From the human T2T-CHM13v2.0 reference genome, Homo sapiens: a stretch of 64,000 nucleotides of DNA. Location of the stretch: assembly GCF_009914755.1 (NCBI RefSeq), contig NC_060931.1; one strand, given 5' to 3'. The translations under genes and the position numbers were made by a program. Under the pieces are notes generated by a model. That model ran no database searches, had not been told where the DNA came from, and saw only the letters and a list, made by a program, of their open reading frames with translations. The number at the start of each line of letters is the position of its first letter. Position 1 is the first letter of the stretch. Shown here in pieces: positions 18,606 to 48,200 of the stretch.

Positions 18606-21600
18606 TGACGAAGGAAAAACCAAATTCTGCCAAAATATTTTAAGATTTTTACTCTGAGCCAATATGAGTGACTGTGGCTCAGGTAACACAGTCTCAAGAG
18701 GTCCTAAGAAAGAGCACCCAAGTGGTGGGGTTACAGTTTAGTTTTATACATTTCAGGGAGATGGGATTTGCAGGCAAAATCATAAATCAATATATGGAAG
18801 GTATACATTGGTTCAACTTGAAAAGGTGGGACATCTTGAAGTGGGAATTTACAAGTCATAGGTGGGTTTTAGAATTCTTATTTGGCAATTGGTTGAAAGA
18901 GTTCAGCTTTGTCTAAAGACTTGGTACCATTCCTTCTGAAACTATTCCAAGCAATAGAAAAAGAGGGAATCCACCCTAACGCATTTTATGAGGCCAGCAT
19001 CATCCTGATACCAAAGTCTGGCAGAGACACAACCAAAAAAGAGAATTTTAGACCAATATCCTTGATGAACATCAACACAAAACTCCTCAATAAAATACTG
19101 GCAAACCGAATCCAGCAGCACATCAAACAGCTTATCCACCATGATCAAGTGGGCTTCATCCCTGGGATGCAAGGCTGGTTCAACATACACAAATCAATAA
19201 ATGTAATCCAGCATATAAACAGAACCAAAGACAAAAAACACGTGATTATCTCAACAGATAAAGAAAAGGCCTTCAACAAAATTCAACAACCCTTCATGCT
19301 AAAAACTCTCAATAAATTAGGTATTGATGGGTCATATCTCAAAATAATAAGAGCTATCTATGACAAACCCACAGCCAATATCATACTGAATGGGCAAAAA
19401 CTGGAAGCATTCCCTTTGAAAACGGGCACAAGACAGGGATGCCCCCTCTCACCACTCCTATTCAACATAGTGTTGGAAGTTCTGGCCAGGGCAATCAGGC
19501 AGGAGAAGGAAATAAAGGGTATTCAATTAGGAAAAGAGGAAGTCAAATCGTCCCTGTTTGCAGATGACATGATTGTGTATCTAGAAAACCCCATCATCTC
19601 AGCCCAAAATCTCCTCAAGCTGATAAGCAACTTCAGCAAAGTCTCAGGATACAAAATCAATGCACAAAAATCACAAGCATTCTTATACACCAATAACAGA
19701 CAAACAGAGAGCCAAATCATGAGTGAACCCCCATTCACAGCTGCTTCAAAGAGAATGTAATACCTGGGAATCCAACTTACAAGGGATGTGAAGGACCTCT
19801 TCAAGGAGAGCTACAAACCACTGCTCAATGAAATAAAAGAGGACACAAACAAATGGAAGAACATTCCATGCTCATGGGTAGGAAGAATCAATATCGTGAA
19901 AATGGCCATACTGCCCAAGGTAATTTATAGATTCAATGCCATCCCCATCAAGCTACCAATGACTTTCTTCACAGAATTGGAAAAAACTACTTTAAAGTTC
20001 ATATGGATCCAAAAAAGAGCCCGCATCACCAAGTCAATCCTAAGCCAAAAGAACAATGCTGGAGGCATCACGCTACCTGACTTCAAACTACACTACAAGG
20101 CTACAGTAACCAAAACAGCATGGTACTGGTACCAAAACAGAGATATAGATCAATGGAACAGAACAGAGCCCTCAGAAATTATGCCGCATGTCTACAACTA
20201 TCTGATCTTTGACAAACCTGAGAAAAACAAGCAATGGGGAAAGGATTCCCTATTTAATAAATGGTGCTGGGAAAACTGGCTAGCCATATGTAGAAAGCTG
20301 AAACTGGATCCCTTCCTTACACCTTATACAAAAATTAATTCAAGATGGATTAAAGACTTAAATGTTACACCTAAAACCGTAAAAACCCTAGAAGAAAACC
20401 TAGGCAATACCATTCAGGACATAGGCATGGGCAAGGACTTCATGTCTAAAACACCAAAAGCAATGGCAACAAAAGCCAAAATTGACAAATGGGATCTAAT
20501 TAAACTAAAGAGCTTCTGCACAGCAAAAGAAACTACCATCAGAGTGAACAGGCAACCTACAGAATGGGAGAAAATTTTTGCAACCTACTCATCTGACAAA
20601 GGGCTAATATCCAGAATCTACAATGAACTCAAACAAATTTACAAGAAAAAAAAAAAAACCCATCAAAAAGTGGGCAAAAGATATGAACAGACACTTCTCA
20701 AAAGAAGACATTTATGCAGCCAAAAAACACATGAAAAAATGCTCATCATCACTGGCCATCAGAGAAATGCAAATCAAAACCACAATGAGATACCATCTCA
20801 CACCAGTTAGAATGGCAATCATTAAAAAGGCAGGAAACAACAGGTGCTGGAGAGGATGTGGAGAAATAGGAACACTTTTACACTGTTGGTGGGACTGTAA
20901 ACTAGTTTAACCATTGTAGAAGTCAGTGTGACAATTCCTCAGGGATCTAGAACTAGAAATACCATTTGACCCAGCCATCCCATTACTGGGTATATACCCA
21001 AATGATTATAAATCATGCTTCTATAAAGACACATGCACATGTATGTGTATTGCGGCACTATTCACAATAGCAAAGACTTGGAACCAACCTAAATGTCCAA
21101 CAACAATAGACTGGATTAAGAAAATGTGGCACATATACACCATGGAATACTATGCAGCCATAAAAAAGGATAAGTTCATGTCCTTTGTAGGGAGATGGAT
21201 GAAACTGGAAACCATTATTCTCAGCCAACTATCGCAAGGACAAAAAACCAAACACCGCATGTTCTCACTCATAGGCGGGAATTGAACAATAAGAACACAT
21301 GGACACAGGAAGGGGATATATCACACACCGGGGACTGTTGTGGGTTGGGGGGAGGGGGGTGGGATAGCATTAGGAGATATACCTAATGCTAAATGACGAG
21401 TTAATAGGTGCAGCACACCAACTTTGCACATGTATACATATGTAACAGGTCTGCACGTTGTGCACATGTACCCTAAAACTTAAAGTATAATTAAAAAAAA
21501 AAAACAAACTTGGGCTCAGTAGAAAGGAATGCGTAAGCTGAGTAAAGGGAGTCTGCTATCTGTCATGTGCTGCCATAGCAGAGTCAGGTTGAAAAGTCGT

Positions 21601-21751
21601 CCACAATATTCCAAGTCAAAAAAAACAAACAAACAAACAACAATAACAACAAAAACCTGCTTAATGAGATTTTATGGTATGTAAGACGTGACTCCCCAGG
21701 TCCCTTAGAAAGGAATTTGAGCGAGAAAAAATGATCAGAGTTCAGTCCTCA
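18606..21751 (-). mobile_element. ERV1 MER4-group solo LTR split by L1 copy A
   Basis: TG...CA termini with a perfect 4-bp TSD CCAA (18602-18605 and 21752-21755). LTR halves 18606-18924 and 21504-21751 are colinear. Confidence 0.85.
18925..21503 (+). mobile_element. 5'-truncated L1PA (copy A, L1PA3/4-like), ORF2 inactivated
   Basis: RT-domain ORF 18909-19760 (LFADDMIVY) ends in a premature TAA; frameshift near 20650. 3'UTR and poly(A) present. TSD AAAGACTTGG/ACAAACTTGG. Confidence 0.95.
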
Positions 21752-45259: not shown

Positions 45260-48200
45260 CTTGGCAATGCAGGCTCTTTTTTGGTTCCATATGAACTTTA
45301 AAGTAGTTTTTTCCAATTCTGTGAAGAAAGTCGTTGGTAGCTTGATGGGGATGGCATTGAATCTATAAATTACCTTGCGCAGTATGGCCATTTTCATGAT
45401 ATTGATTATTCCTACCCATGAGCATGGAATGTTCTTCCATTTGTTTGTATCCTCTTTTATTTCATTGAGCAGTGGTTTGTAGTTCTCCTTGAAGAGGTCC
45501 TTCACGTCCCTTGTAAGTTGGATTCCTAGGTATTTTATTCTCTTTGAAGCAGTTGTGAATGGGGGTTCACTCATGATTTGACTCTCTGTTTGTCTGTTAT
45601 TGGTGTATAAGAATGCTTGTGATTTCTGCACATTGATTTTGTATCCTGAGACTTTGCTGAAGTTATCTATCAGCTTAAGGGGATTTGGGGCTGAGACGAT
45701 GGGGTTTTCTAGATATACAATCATGTTATCTGCACACAGGGACAATTTGACTTCCTCTTTTCCTAATTGAATACCCTTTATTTCCTTCTCCTGCCTGATT
45801 TCCCTGGCAAGAACTTCCAACACTTTGTTGAATAGGAGTGGTGAGAGAGGGCAACCCTGTCTTGTGCCAGTTTTCAAAGGGAATGCTTCCATTTTTGCCC
45901 ATTCAGTATGATATTGGCTGTGGGTTTGTCATAGATAGCTCCTATTTTGTTGAGATACGTCCCATCAATACCTAATTTATCAAGAGTTTTTAGCATGAAG
46001 GTTGTTGAATTTTGTGAAAGGCTTTTTCTGCATCTATTGAGATAATCATTTGGTTTTTGTTGTAGGCTCTGTTTATATGCTGGATTACATTTATTGATTT
46101 GCATATGTTGAACAAGCCTTGCATCCCAGGGATGAAGCCCACTTGATCATGGTGGATAAGCATTTCGATGTGCTGCTGGATTCAGTTTGCCAGTATTTTA
46201 TTGAGAATTTTTGTATCGATTTTCCTCACGGATATTCGTCTAAAATCCTCTTTTTTTGTTGGGTCTCTGCCAGTCTGTTGTGTCAAGATGATGCTGGCCT
46301 CATAAGATGAGTTAGGGAGGATTCCCTCTTTTTCTATTGATTGAAATAGTTTCAGAAGGAATGGTACCAGCTCCTCCTTGTACCTCTGGTAGAATTCGGC
46401 TGTGAATCCATCTGGTCCTGGACTTTTTTTTGGTTGGCAGGCTACTAATTATTGCCTCAATTTCGGAGCCTGTTATTGTTCTTTTCAGAGATTCAACTTC
46501 TTCCTGGTTTAGTCTTGGGAGGGTGTATGTGTCAAGGAATTTATCCATTTCTTCTAGATTTTCTAGTTTATTTGTGTAGAGGTGTTTATAGTATTCTCTG
46601 ATGGTAGTTTGTATTTCTGTGGGATCAGTGGTGATATCCCCTTTATCATTTTTTAGTACGTCTATTTGATTCTTCCCTCTTTTCTTCTTTATTAGTCTTG
46701 CTAGTGGTCTATCAATTTTGTTGATCTTTTCAAAAAACCAGCTCCTGGATTCATTGATTTTTTGAGGGTTTTTTTTGTGTCTCTATTTCCTTCAGTTCTG
46801 CTCTGATCTTAGTTATTTCTTGCCTTCTGCTAGCTTTTGAATGTGTTTGCTCTTGCTTCTCTAGTTCTTTTAACTGTGATGTTAGGGTGTCAATTTTAGA
46901 TCTTTCCTGCTTTCTCTTGTGAGCATTTAGTGCTGTAAATTTCCCTCTACACACTGCTTTGAATGTGTCCCAGAGATTCTGGTATGTTGTCTGTGTTCTC
47001 AGTAATTTCAAGGAACATCTTTATTTCTGCCTTCATTTCGTTATGTACCCAGTAGTCATTCAGGAGCAGGTTGTTCAGTTTCCATGTAGTTGAGTGGTTT
47101 TGAGTGAATTTCTTAATCCTGAGTTCTAGTCTGATTGCACTGTGGTCTGAGAGACAGTTTGTTATAATTTCTGTTCTTTTAATTTGCTGAGGAGTGCTTT
47201 ACTTCCAACTATGTGGTCAGTTTTGGAATAGGTGTGGTGTGGTGCTGAAAAAAATGTATATTCTGTTGATTTGGGTTGGAGAGCTCTGTAGATGTCTATT
47301 AGGTCCACTTGGTGCAGAGCTGAGTTCAATTCCTGGATATCCTTGTTAACTTTCTGTCTCATTGATCTGTCTAATGTTGACAGTGGTGTGTTAAATTCTC
47401 CCATTATTATTGTGTGGGAGTCTAAGTCTCTTTCTAGGTCTCTAAGGACTTGCTTTATGAATCTGGGTGGTCCTGTATTGGGTGCATATACATTTAGGAT
47501 AGTTGGCTCTTCTTGTTGAATTGATCCCTTTACCATTATGTAATGGCCTTCTTTGTCTCTTTTGATCTTTGTTGGTTTAAAATCTGTTTTATCAGAGACT
47601 AGGATTGCAAGCCCTGCCTTTTTTTATTTTCCATTTGCTTGGCAGATCTTCCTCCATCCCTTTATTTTGAGCTTATGTGTGTCTCTGCCCATGAGATGGG
47701 TTTCCTGAATGCAGCACATTGATGGGTCTTGACTCTTTATCCAATTTGCCAGTCTGTGTCTTTTAACTGGAGCATTTAGCCCATTTACGTTTAAGGTTAA
47801 TGTTGTTTTGTGTGAATTTGATCCTGTCATTATGATCTTAGCTGGTTATTTTGCCCATTAATTGATGCAGTTTCTTCCTAGCCTCGATGGTCTTTACAAT
47901 TTGGCATGTTTTTGCAGTGGCTGGTACCGGTTGTTCCTTTCTATGTTTAGTGCTTCCTTCAGGAGCTCTTTTAGGGCAGGTCTGATGGTGACAAAATCTC
48001 TCAGCATTTGCTTGTCTGTAATGGATTTTATTTCTCCTTCACTTATGAAGCTTAGTTTGGCTGGATATGAAATTCTTGGTTGAAAATTCTTTTCTTTAAG
48101 AATGTTGAATACTGGCCCCCACTCTCTTCTGGCTTGTAGAGTTTCTGCCTAGAGATCAGCTGTTAGTCTGATGGGCTTCCCTTTGCGGGTAACCCGACCT

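What the first reader, a model, noticed from the sequence alone, without database searches (positions are those of the whole stretch)
18925..47610. Pair-switching mosaic of unusual variants among four neighbouring L1s: a local gene-conversion hub
Seen, all on the L1 sense strand. All four copies carry AAAAAGGCAGG (KKAGNN; I recall KKSGNN in human consensus) and TTACACCTAAAA (VTPK vs VRPK). Other variants are shared by changing pairs. A+B: GATAAAGAAAAGG (19257/33910), CTCCTCAAGC, ATGGATCCA (20003/33165), CTCAGCCAACT. C+D: AATTACCATC...CAACATATAG (36950/43690), CCATATGATC, TCTTAAGCC, ATATCCCCAAAG. B+C: CAGAAAAATG (32410/37181). A+D: GAACCCCCATTCACA.CTGC (19725/45560). A+C: GGGAGATGG. B+D: CTGTGTGCAG. 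Inference: no single tree fits these patterns, implying repeated conversion or flip-flop inversion among alternately oriented copies within 31 kb, i.e. concerted evolution of dead retroelements. The variants common to all four could instead mark a lineage-specific L1 subfamily.
Basis: partly seen in the sequence, partly recalled or inferred. Interest (0 to 1): 0.8.

Follow-up and report, generated by a model that had tools for sequence, protein, structure and literature searches.

The report
Split L1 inside known inversion repeat
The "four neighbouring L1 copies" are really one old L1 broken open by a 12-kb inverted copy of a stretch 86 kb away, which forms one arm of a known common human inversion, and a few variants found nowhere else in the genome show that L1s in this neighbourhood once shared short patches of sequence.

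Summary
The anatomy is different. B's 3' part and D's 5' part are two halves of one full-length L1 ("L1-W"): the same 11-bp target-site duplication flanks 31680 and 49915. L1-W is split by about 12.1 kb copied in inverted orientation from chr7:54.380-54.396 Mb. The core has 1 substitution in 10,181 bp. Both junctions lie in L1-L1 homology. C and D's 3' part are therefore copies of two upstream L1s. The pair of 15.9-kb inverted repeats matches the arms of the published polymorphic inversion HsInv0286 / inv-7p11.2 (PMC3961182, PMC6608898).

Of the 40 informative sites, 20 support AB|CD, 14 AC|BD and 6 AD|BC, and 17 are common L1 polymorphisms. The A+D and B+D variants recur 36-40 times genome-wide. 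The A+B haplotype (2 hits) and the C+D haplotype (4 hits) are found only here. So is the two-site haplotype shared by all four, with 6 hits.

Verdict: a known inversion repeat, whose origin as a homology-templated insertion into an L1 I did not find described. It also carries old, local L1-L1 exchange. There is no evidence of ongoing conversion among four in-situ neighbours.

The parts
18922..21501 (+). A: 5'-truncated L1 (3' 2.58 kb) with poly-A and a short target-site duplication (ACTTGG core). It lies inside the 74-kb invertible spacer.
31667..31677 (+). Target-site duplication of L1-W, copy next to the poly-A end (GGAGAAATCTT).
   Evidence: 2 matches in the window, 0.08 expected
31680..34280 (-).
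   Evidence: differs from the upstream B5'' at 18 sites in 34038-34280
34281..34730 (-). Left junction zone: 450 bp of L1 sequence with 0 differences from the upstream donor.
34731..34896 (-). Patch with 11 substitutions and a 2-bp length difference from the donor. The window copy reads like solved ORF2p here. The donor B5'' and D' share the derived alleles, including a 2-bp deletion.
34897..35556 (-). Copy of the inverted 5' segment (B5'') of the donor's twin-primed L1. It carries 8 donor-private alleles but also 6 substitutions and a 3-bp indel against the donor.
35557..37925 (+). C: copy of the sense 3' segment of the donor's twin-primed L1, with 1 substitution (36930) against the donor.
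37951..42735 (-). Copied spacer, made largely of an old L1 ('O', 66-81% like other genomic copies). Exactly two 100% copies exist in the genome.
42736..47011 (-). D, 3' two-thirds: copy of the upstream full-length L1 D'. It includes a 1051-bp insert at 44208-45258.
47012..47120 (-). Right junction zone, between the last donor-type allele and the first absence of a D'-private allele.
47121..49915 (-). It has 215 substitutions and 34 indel columns against D' in 2795 bp.
49919..49929 (+). Target-site duplication of L1-W, copy next to the L1 5' end (GGAGAAATCTT).
34038..49915 (.). Whole BLAST-alignable arm (15.9 kb) of the inverted repeat. Its partner is chr7:54,379,781-54,395,663.
   Evidence: 15,902 columns, 98.15%

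Best explanation
Window 31680-49915 is one full-length L1PA insertion (L1-W, minus strand, 6.1 kb). It was broken near L1 position 2800-3500. The break was repaired from an ectopic template 74-86 kb upstream that holds two other L1s in the right order and orientation. One is a 5'-inverted (twin-primed) L1, made of B5'' and C'. The other is a full-length L1, D'. One broken end paired with B5''. This is synthesis-dependent strand annealing of the 'duplication-dependent' kind. The result is a 12.1-kb inverted duplicate inside L1-W. Together with its source it forms the 15.9-kb inverted-repeat pair that mediates the known polymorphic inversion HsInv0286 (inv-7p11.2). Shown: the shared target-site duplication of L1-W, the intact donor structures, the near-identity of the core, and junctions that lie in L1 homology. 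Inferred: the repair pathway, the direction (upstream to window), and the equation with HsInv0286. The 'pair-switching' variants predate this event and have three sources. (i) Common L1 polymorphisms. (ii) Rare variants that recur in many L1s. (iii) A few haplotypes private to this locus, shared by elements that were neighbours before the duplication: A with L1-W, 10 kb apart, C'/B5'' with D', 5-12 kb apart, and a two-site haplotype in all four. I read (iii) as old short-tract non-allelic gene conversion, made while the copies were young and nearly identical.
For: Structure. An 11-mer (GGAGAAATCTT) occurs only twice in the window, abutting B's poly-A end and D's 5' end (0.08 expected). D without its 1051-bp insert is 6129 bp and B aligns to it continuously. 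Window 34038-49915 aligns inverted to chr7:54,379,781-54,395,663 over 15,902 columns. The core, 35557-45737, has 1 substitution in 10,181 bp. Only two 100% copies of the spacer exist in the genome. Donor intact: upstream, D' has its own 16-bp target-site duplication with 1 mismatch. Also upstream, the twin-primed L1 sits in an old L1 whose two halves continue across it. The window holds only the half that lies inside the copy. Junctions: the left one is in a 450-bp block with no differences, and the right one is within 109 bp. Beyond them only 76-94% L1-L1 similarity remains. [quoted passage not shown] My spacer is 74,374 bp. The DDSA model is described in PMC3276153. Variants: the A+B 22-mer has 2 hits genome-wide. 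The C+D gapped 21-base pattern has 4 hits, namely C, D, C' and D'. The two-site pattern has 6 hits, all local. A frameshift haplotype shared by D' and B'' has 4 hits: D', its window copy, B5'' and one on chr2. C+D-derived alleles lie only in C positions 902-1994, and A+B-derived alleles only outside that span. B5'' and D' differ at about 50 sites in L1 3057-3754 yet share the patch at 2904-2981. That mosaic does not fit descent of whole elements. The flanks of A and L1-W share nothing with the donor locus except 7 short repeat matches of 213-279 bp at 80-88%, so an old segmental duplication does not explain the sharing.
Against: Only one genome was available. No empty-site allele or ape orthologue was seen, so direction and age are inferred. 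The arm edges are more diverged than the core: 6 substitutions plus a 3-bp indel in 660 bp, and 5 in 1274 bp. A single recent copying event does not explain this. It needs either an older duplication with later arm-to-arm homogenisation or later exchanges at the edges. The patch at 34731-34896 has two readings: the recipient's own sequence, or a later D'-to-B5'' conversion. SDSA cannot be told apart from break-induced replication with template switches. For the old conversions, no pair shows lower divergence or long identical tracts, so the timing is 'early' by inference only. A and C share 5 rare variants, two of them in an A-run, although they lie 59 kb apart in the ancestral layout. That is more than I expect by chance, and neighbour-limited conversion does not explain it. 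The background sample of 65 copies consists only of carriers of the G allele and mixes ages (84-96% identity to C). Four loci (L045, L048, L049, L062) were dropped as short or rearranged. The search tool states that its counts in repeats are lower bounds.
Confidence: 0.75

Rival explanations
1. One reading: A, B, C and D are four resident neighbours within 31 kb that keep exchanging sequence, by repeated conversion or flip-flop inversion. On this view the mosaic is made in place and is ongoing.
For: Partition types cluster along the element (P=0.023 and 0.005). Private haplotypes exist. The copies alternate in orientation.
Against: C and D's 3' part equal their upstream originals at all 40 informative sites. 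The only differences are at 36930 and 45856. B and D are halves of one element plus copied sequence. There are no long identical tracts between any pair (global P=0.19). Pairwise divergence of AB and CD is no lower than that of the cross pairs.
Confidence: 0.05
2. Subfamily only: all four derive from a small L1PA sub-lineage. The shared variants are lineage markers plus chance parallel mutations, with no DNA-level exchange between copies.
For: Single variants recur elsewhere: G allele 75 hits, NVTPK 19-mer 55, A+D 40, B+D 36, a C+D single site 50. 17 of the 40 sites are common polymorphisms. An unrelated chrX copy is 96% identical to A over the full 2352 bp, which is closer than B or C (only 40 of 20,024 candidates were scored).
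Against: The multi-site haplotypes are found only here. The G allele is 0.4% of 19,276 copies, yet 4 independent insertions within 93 kb carry it together with a second rare allele. Random insertion of a small subfamily would not place all its detectable members in one 93-kb stretch. A shared frameshift is unlikely to come from an autonomous source element. A fifth young L1 20 kb from A lacks the local alleles.
Confidence: 0.1
3. Local re-insertion: a resident full-length L1 (D' or L1-W) carrying the private alleles was a source element, and its transcripts re-inserted three times within about 90 kb. The shared haplotypes would then be parent-offspring marks.
For: The two-site haplotype is restricted to four independent insertions with different target-site duplications. 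Each private pair consists of one full-length and one truncated element with 3' ends facing each other, 10 kb and 5 kb apart.
Against: Shared derived alleles are confined to tracts rather than spread over the elements. L1-W has 13 private alleles in L1 3600-3750 that A lacks. B5'' and D' differ by about 7% over 700 bp. From my own knowledge, no local insertion preference is known for L1.
Confidence: 0.1

Closest known systems
Inverted repeats of the polymorphic human inversion HsInv0286 / inv-7p11.2 (Aguado et al. 2014, PMC3961182; scoreInvHap inv7_005, PMC6608898)
   Same: chr7p11.2. Two inverted repeats of 15.9 kb made wholly of transposable-element pieces, about 74.3 kb of invertible sequence between them, and no genes affected. 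My alignment is 15,902 columns and my spacer 74,374 bp.
   Different: In the passages I read the repeats are only listed as 'TEs/SDs'. Their origin is not described there: a full-length L1 split at one point, a shared target-site duplication, and junctions in L1 homology. I did not open the supplements. The liftover from hg18 to CHM13 could not be run. The match rests on sizes and an offset of about 126 kb that is the same for both breakpoints.
[quoted passage not shown] 2007, seen only as cited in PMC3276153 and PMC3420103)
   Same: A break in a repeated element is repaired from an ectopic site that holds the same repeat, so that flanking sequence is duplicated into the break. Here both junctions lie in L1 homology and the donor is intact.
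   Different: The model was proposed for Drosophila, mostly for short duplications. Here the copy is 12 kb, inverted, 74-86 kb away, and uses two different donor L1s as the entry and exit homologies. The original paper is not held.
Homogenisation of neighbouring Alu elements by non-allelic gene conversion (Aleshin and Zhi 2010; Zhi 2007; as summarised in PMC6598467 and PMC8230782)
   Same: Non-diagnostic variants are shared by neighbouring copies of a retroelement. The effect is strongest within about 10 kb. Here the A/L1-W and C'/D' pairs are 10 and 5 kb apart.
   Different: The elements here are L1s, not Alus. One haplotype is shared over up to about 90 kb. The review states that most such work concerns Alu (PMC8230782, passage). 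My three searches listed no genome-wide L1 equivalent, which does not show that none exists.
Twin priming (5'-inverted L1 insertions; Ostertag and Kazazian 2001, recalled, not seen)
   Same: The donor element is an inverted segment (L1 2244-3763) joined to a sense segment (3766 to poly-A) with a 2-base gap. It is inserted in an old L1 that continues on both sides.
   Different: In the window the inverted segment appears to run on into a complete 3' end. This made B look like an ordinary 3.9-kb L1 lying head-to-head with C. That extension belongs to L1-W.
Arm-to-arm gene conversion in palindromes and inverted segmental duplications (general knowledge)
   Same: The core of the arms is nearly identical (1 substitution in 10,181 bp) and the edges are more diverged.
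   Different: Not demonstrated here. With one genome, a recent origin and ongoing homogenisation cannot be told apart.

Membership tests
L1 (LINE-1) insertion made by target-primed reverse transcription | ORF2 homology | tested here: met
   Translated pieces of A and B match solved human ORF2p at E 1e-49 to 1e-69.
L1 (LINE-1) insertion made by target-primed reverse transcription | Poly-A tail and target-site duplication at the two ends of one element | tested here: met
   L1-W has an exact 11-mer at 31667-31677 and 49919-49929. D' upstream has 15 of 16 bases matching. A has an ACTTGG core.
Twin-primed (5'-inverted) L1 | The inverted segment and the sense segment are adjacent in L1 coordinates, and the flanks are one continuous target | tested here: met
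   L1 2244-3763 inverted plus 3766 to the end. The upstream flanks are consecutive parts of one old L1. A clean target-site duplication was not resolved.
Inverted segmental duplication = arms of HsInv0286 | Two inverted copies of about 15.9 kb with about 74.3 kb between them on 7p11.2 | tested here: met
   15,902 aligned columns and a spacer of 74,374 bp, against 15.9/15.9 kb and 74,342 sites (PMC3961182).
Inverted segmental duplication = arms of HsInv0286 | Same genomic coordinates after liftover from hg18 | not testable with these tools
   No liftover or hg18 sequence is held. The offset of about 126 kb is the same for both breakpoints only by construction.
DDSA / SDSA-type templated duplication | Both junctions lie in repeats shared by donor and recipient, and the donor is unchanged | tested here: met
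   (junction zones of 450 bp and 109 bp within L1 homology). (donor elements complete).
DDSA / SDSA-type templated duplication | The recipient repeat is broken at one point without loss | tested here: inconclusive
   L1-W's own alleles run to L1 2796 on one side. On the other side they start at 2817 if the patch is the recipient's own sequence, or only at 3519 if it is not.
Non-allelic gene conversion between retroelement copies | Non-diagnostic variants shared by neighbours and absent elsewhere | tested here: met
   Hits genome-wide: 2 (A+B), 4 (C+D), 6 (all four), 4 (frameshift patch).
Non-allelic gene conversion between retroelement copies | Tract-like distribution and mosaic relationships | tested here: met
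   Runs test P=0.023, longest run P=0.005. C+D-derived alleles lie only in C positions 902-1994. B5'' and D' are a mosaic.
Non-allelic gene conversion between retroelement copies | Unusually long identical fragments between a pair (recent events) | tested here: not met
   Sawyer-type permutation: best pair P=0.08, global P=0.19.
Non-allelic gene conversion between retroelement copies | Orthologues in other species show the pre-conversion state | not testable with these tools
   Only this human assembly is held.

The most novel reading that the evidence does not exclude
A resident L1 lineage re-inserted repeatedly within about 90 kb of its source. Four independent insertions with different target-site duplications are the only L1s in the genome that carry the two-site haplotype. 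More generally, nearby L1s share rare variants far more often than L1 density predicts: 6 same-variant pairs within 50 kb against 0.27 expected. This could reflect local re-insertion rather than conversion.
Probability: 0.1. Interest if true: 0.8.

Novelty: new member of a known kind. Interest (0 to 1): 0.45.

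Why it matters
It gives a base-level account of how the inverted repeats of a common human inversion came to exist. The inversion has a frequency of about 0.47-0.50 in Europeans (PMC3961182, PMC6608898). 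One break in an L1 was repaired from two other L1s nearby. That is a concrete human case of repeat-templated duplication creating the substrate for later inversion by homologous recombination.

It makes two predictions. First, an 'empty' allele should exist in some primate or human haplotype: an uninterrupted full-length L1 flanked by the 11-bp duplication. Second, on inverted chromosomes L1-W's 3' part should sit next to the upstream arm.

The locus-private haplotypes, together with the genome-wide clustering of identical rare L1 variants, suggest that L1s may undergo the neighbour homogenisation already described for Alu. If so, it would bias L1 age and subfamily estimates based on divergence.

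It is also a caution for readers of raw sequence. Alternately oriented L1s of similar divergence can be one element plus a duplicated insert.

Tried and rejected
I did not ask again. Backgrounds are therefore the 65 G-allele copies and genome-wide k-mer counts.
2. Nearest relatives of A by DNA search: only 40 of 20,024 candidates were scored, so it cannot rank relatives. It does show an unrelated copy at 96%.
3. Whole-element sisterhood of A/B and C/D: rejected. Pairwise distances are no lower than for cross pairs and shared derived alleles are confined to tracts.
4. An old segmental duplication linking the A/L1-W region with the donor locus: rejected. Only 7 short matches of 213-279 bp at 80-88% were found.
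5. Twin priming as the origin of the B|C head-to-head junction in the window: rejected for B as a whole, because B and C overlap by 2.36 kb of L1. It is accepted for the donor element.
6. An assembly artefact: unlikely, since the same 15.9-kb repeats are listed for hg18 with an experimentally validated inversion (PMC3961182).
7. Elevated identity around the G site in other genomic neighbour pairs: uninformative, because that stretch is conserved in all pairs.
8. The FastTree tree of 69 sequences: my coverage filter failed, partial copies gave long branches, and I draw nothing from it beyond the nearest-neighbour distances.
9. A first MAFFT run timed out and was repeated with faster settings. 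That alignment includes flanks, so frequencies at C positions below about 900 rest on 37-62 sequences.
10. One pattern was mistyped with 13 instead of 12 N and found nothing. It was corrected.
11. Earlier findings of this scan were not open.

Full report
OBSERVATION. Self-comparison shows L1 sequence at four places:
- A: 18922-21501 (+).
- B: 31680-35556 (-).
- C: 35557-37925 (+).
- D: 42736-49915 (-). D carries a 1051-bp insert at 44208-45258 and is full length (6129 bp without the insert). It does not end at 47610.

Over the 2344 columns shared by all four there are 40 informative sites: AB|CD 20, AC|BD 14, AD|BC 6. Pairwise identities are 93.8-95.3%. The partition types are clustered along the element: 19 runs against 25.2 expected (P=0.023), with a longest run of 10 (P=0.005). 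Solved human ORF2p has KKSGNN and NVKPK where these copies have KKAGNN and NVTPK.

ANATOMY. Two of them lie 87 kb upstream of C and D with the same 6156-bp spacing. I fetched the 60 kb to the left of the window. Window 34038-49915 aligns in inverted orientation to chr7:54,379,781-54,395,663 over 15,902 columns. Identity is not uniform:
- 35557-45737: 1 substitution in 10,181 bp.
- 45738-47011: 5 substitutions in 1274 bp.
- 34897-35556: 6 substitutions and a 3-bp indel in 660 bp.
- 34731-34896: 11 substitutions and a 2-bp length difference in 166 bp.
- 34281-34730: no differences in 450 bp.
- Outside these limits: only ordinary L1-to-L1 similarity, with 215 substitutions in 2795 bp on the D side and 18 differences in 243 bp on the B side.
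The spacer 38600-42600 has exactly two 100% copies in the genome. The next best matches, at 66-81%, are copies of an old L1.

Upstream, the structures are complete. D' is a full-length L1 with its own target-site duplication, 15 of 16 bases matching. B5'' plus C' form a 5'-inverted L1: L1 2244-3763 inverted and 3766 to poly-A in sense orientation. That element lies inside an old L1 whose sequence continues on both sides of it.

In the window, only the half of the old L1 that lies inside the copied segment is present. On the other side, the inverted segment runs on without a break into a full L1 3' end with poly-A. This made B look like an ordinary 3.9-kb element.

The decisive point is the target-site duplication. 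The 11-mer GGAGAAATCTT occurs twice in the 64-kb window (0.08 expected). One copy abuts B's poly-A end (31667-31677). The other lies three bases beyond D's 5' end (49919-49929). B's 3' part and D's 5' part are therefore the two halves of one full-length insertion, L1-W. The composite 31680-49915 is 18,236 bp, which is 6129 bp of L1 plus about 12.1 kb of copied sequence.

MECHANISM. Both junctions lie in L1 homology. On the D side, L1-W's own alleles run up to L1 2796 (window 47120), and donor-type alleles start at L1 2904 (window 47012). On the B side, L1-W's own sequence runs from the 3' end to L1 3519. It is followed by 450 bp identical to the donor, then the 166-bp patch, then donor-derived sequence that carries 8 B5''-private alleles.

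In the patch the window copy translates like solved ORF2p: 83 of 86 residues match in the printed alignment. B5'' and D' share the alternative alleles there, including a 2-bp deletion.

Two readings fit:
- The patch is L1-W's own sequence, left at the 3' end of the invading strand. In that case L1-W was broken between L1 2796 and 2817 with no loss.
- B5'' was converted by D' after the duplication.

In either case the event is a templated, homology-directed insertion. A break in an L1 was repaired from an ectopic site where one L1 fragment served as entry and another as exit. This is the DDSA variant of SDSA (as described in PMC3276153, and PMC3420103; the original paper is not held). A single unequal crossover cannot make an inverted duplicate. 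I cannot separate break-induced replication with template switching from SDSA.

The direction, upstream to window, is inferred from the intact donor structures and from the recipient's split target-site duplication.

KNOWN CONTEXT. Aguado et al. 2014 (PMC3961182; Tables 1-3, footnote 7 and the evolutionary-history passages read) list HsInv0286. It is on chr7, with hg18 breakpoints at 54258468-54259261 and 54353522-54354315. [quoted passage not shown] The inverted region has 74,342 sites. The frequency is 0.47 in CEU, Std is the ancestral orientation, and the origin is unique.

scoreInvHap (PMC6608898; table row and discussion read) lists inv7_005 at 7p11.2, 73.9 kb, 50.4%.

My arms are 15,902 columns and my spacer is 74,374 bp, so I take them to be the same repeats. 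A liftover could not be run.

A search for 'HsInv0286' found 3 papers. In the passages I read, the origin of the repeats is not described. I did not open the supplements.

A lies inside the invertible spacer. In CHM13 both L1-W's halves and the old L1's halves are coherent, so this assembly has the arrangement in which the repeat arose. I infer that this is Std.

AGE. The core divergence, 1 in 10,181 bp, would mean at most a few hundred thousand years at about 0.5e-9 per base per year (my own figure). The edges, at 0.4-0.9%, would mean millions of years. An older duplication with later arm-to-arm homogenisation of the core fits both figures, but this remains open.

THE VARIANTS. C and D's 3' part differ from C' and D' at only two positions (36930 and 45856). 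Neither is an informative site. All their states were therefore imported. The real comparison is among four independent insertions, whose layout before the duplication was: D', then C'/B5'' 5 kb away, then A 59 kb further, then L1-W 10 kb beyond A.

I used 65 other genomic copies as background. These come from the 69 G-allele loci with 4 dropped. Against that background, 17 of the 40 informative sites are common polymorphisms (10% or more) and 23 are rare. By carrier pair the rare sites are CD 7, AB 5, AC 5, BD 3, AD 2 and BC 1.

Genome-wide counts:
- G allele: 75 of 19,276.
- NVTPK 19-mer: 55.
- A+D: 40.
- B+D: 36.
- A+C: 7.
- A single-site C+D variant: 50.
- A+B five-change patch: 2.
- C+D three-change pattern: 4.
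- Two-site haplotype of all four: 6, all local.
- Frameshift patch shared by D' and B5'': 4, of which 3 are local.

Shared derived alleles are confined to tracts. C+D-derived alleles lie only in C positions 902-1994, and A+B-derived alleles only outside that span. A lacks L1-W's 13 private alleles just upstream. B5'' and D' differ at about 50 sites over 700 bp next to the patch they share.

No pair has lowered divergence or long identical fragments. The flanks share no old duplication. A fifth young L1 nearby lacks the local alleles.

I conclude that the private haplotypes are old. The best explanation is short-tract non-allelic conversion between then-young neighbours, as described for Alus within about 10 kb (PMC6598467; PMC8230782). 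A small subfamily, or local re-insertion from a resident source, is not excluded.

IN PASSING. Outside this locus, carriers of the same rare variant lie within 50 kb of each other 6 times out of 5901 possible pairs. Carriers of different rare variants do so once out of 22,065 possible pairs. The expected number is 0.27. The members of those pairs are 87-97% identical.

VERDICT. The repeat and the inversion are already known. Three things appear to be new details of known kinds of process: the origin of the repeat as a templated insertion that split an L1, the locus-private L1 haplotypes, and the genome-wide clustering of rare variants.

Noticed in passing
genome-wide; examples chr5:127.54/127.57 Mb, chr8:83.02/83.04 Mb, chr9:123.490/123.495 Mb, chr19:45.54/45.56 Mb, chr2:77.146/77.172 Mb, chr6:50.468/50.474 Mb (loci L015/16, L025/26, L035/36, L052/53): L1 copies carrying the same rare variant k-mer cluster. 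There are 6 same-variant pairs within 50 kb out of 5901 possible, against 1 of 22,065 cross-variant pairs (expected 0.27). Within 500 kb there are 21 against 2.9 expected. The G-allele pairs checked are 87-97% identical, so they are not recent duplicates. The control rests on a single cross-variant pair, and age-specific regional L1 density was not excluded.
   Followed up: partly
L014:7556-8910 (chr7:54,433,556-54,434,910, just left of the window): A fifth young L1, 5'-inverted, with target-site duplication AAAAAGGCAGTAGA. It has the common alleles at all 10 rare local sites it covers, including the NVTPK site.
   Followed up: yes
window 44208-45258 (and the identical upstream copy): A 1051-bp insertion inside D / D', flanked by TTGGC on both sides. 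Probably a solo LTR, but its family was not tested.
   Followed up: no
window 37908-37950: C's 3' end is followed by a 13-base filler and a second copy of the L1 terminus plus A-run before the old-L1 flank resumes. I did not resolve the target-site duplication of the twin-primed element.
   Followed up: partly
window 47613-47623 (-): A fifth AAAAAGGCAGG match lies in an unrelated part of D (around L1 position 2300).
   Followed up: yes
chr7:54,297,576 (outside the window and the loci held): Another L1 carrying the single-site C+D variant (ATATCCCC) lies 82 kb upstream of the donor arm. It was not fetched.
   Followed up: no
window 26931-29351 and 12597-15356: Older L1 fragments, 65-76% identical to B, in both orientations. 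They are ordinary and take no part in the exchanges seen.
   Followed up: no
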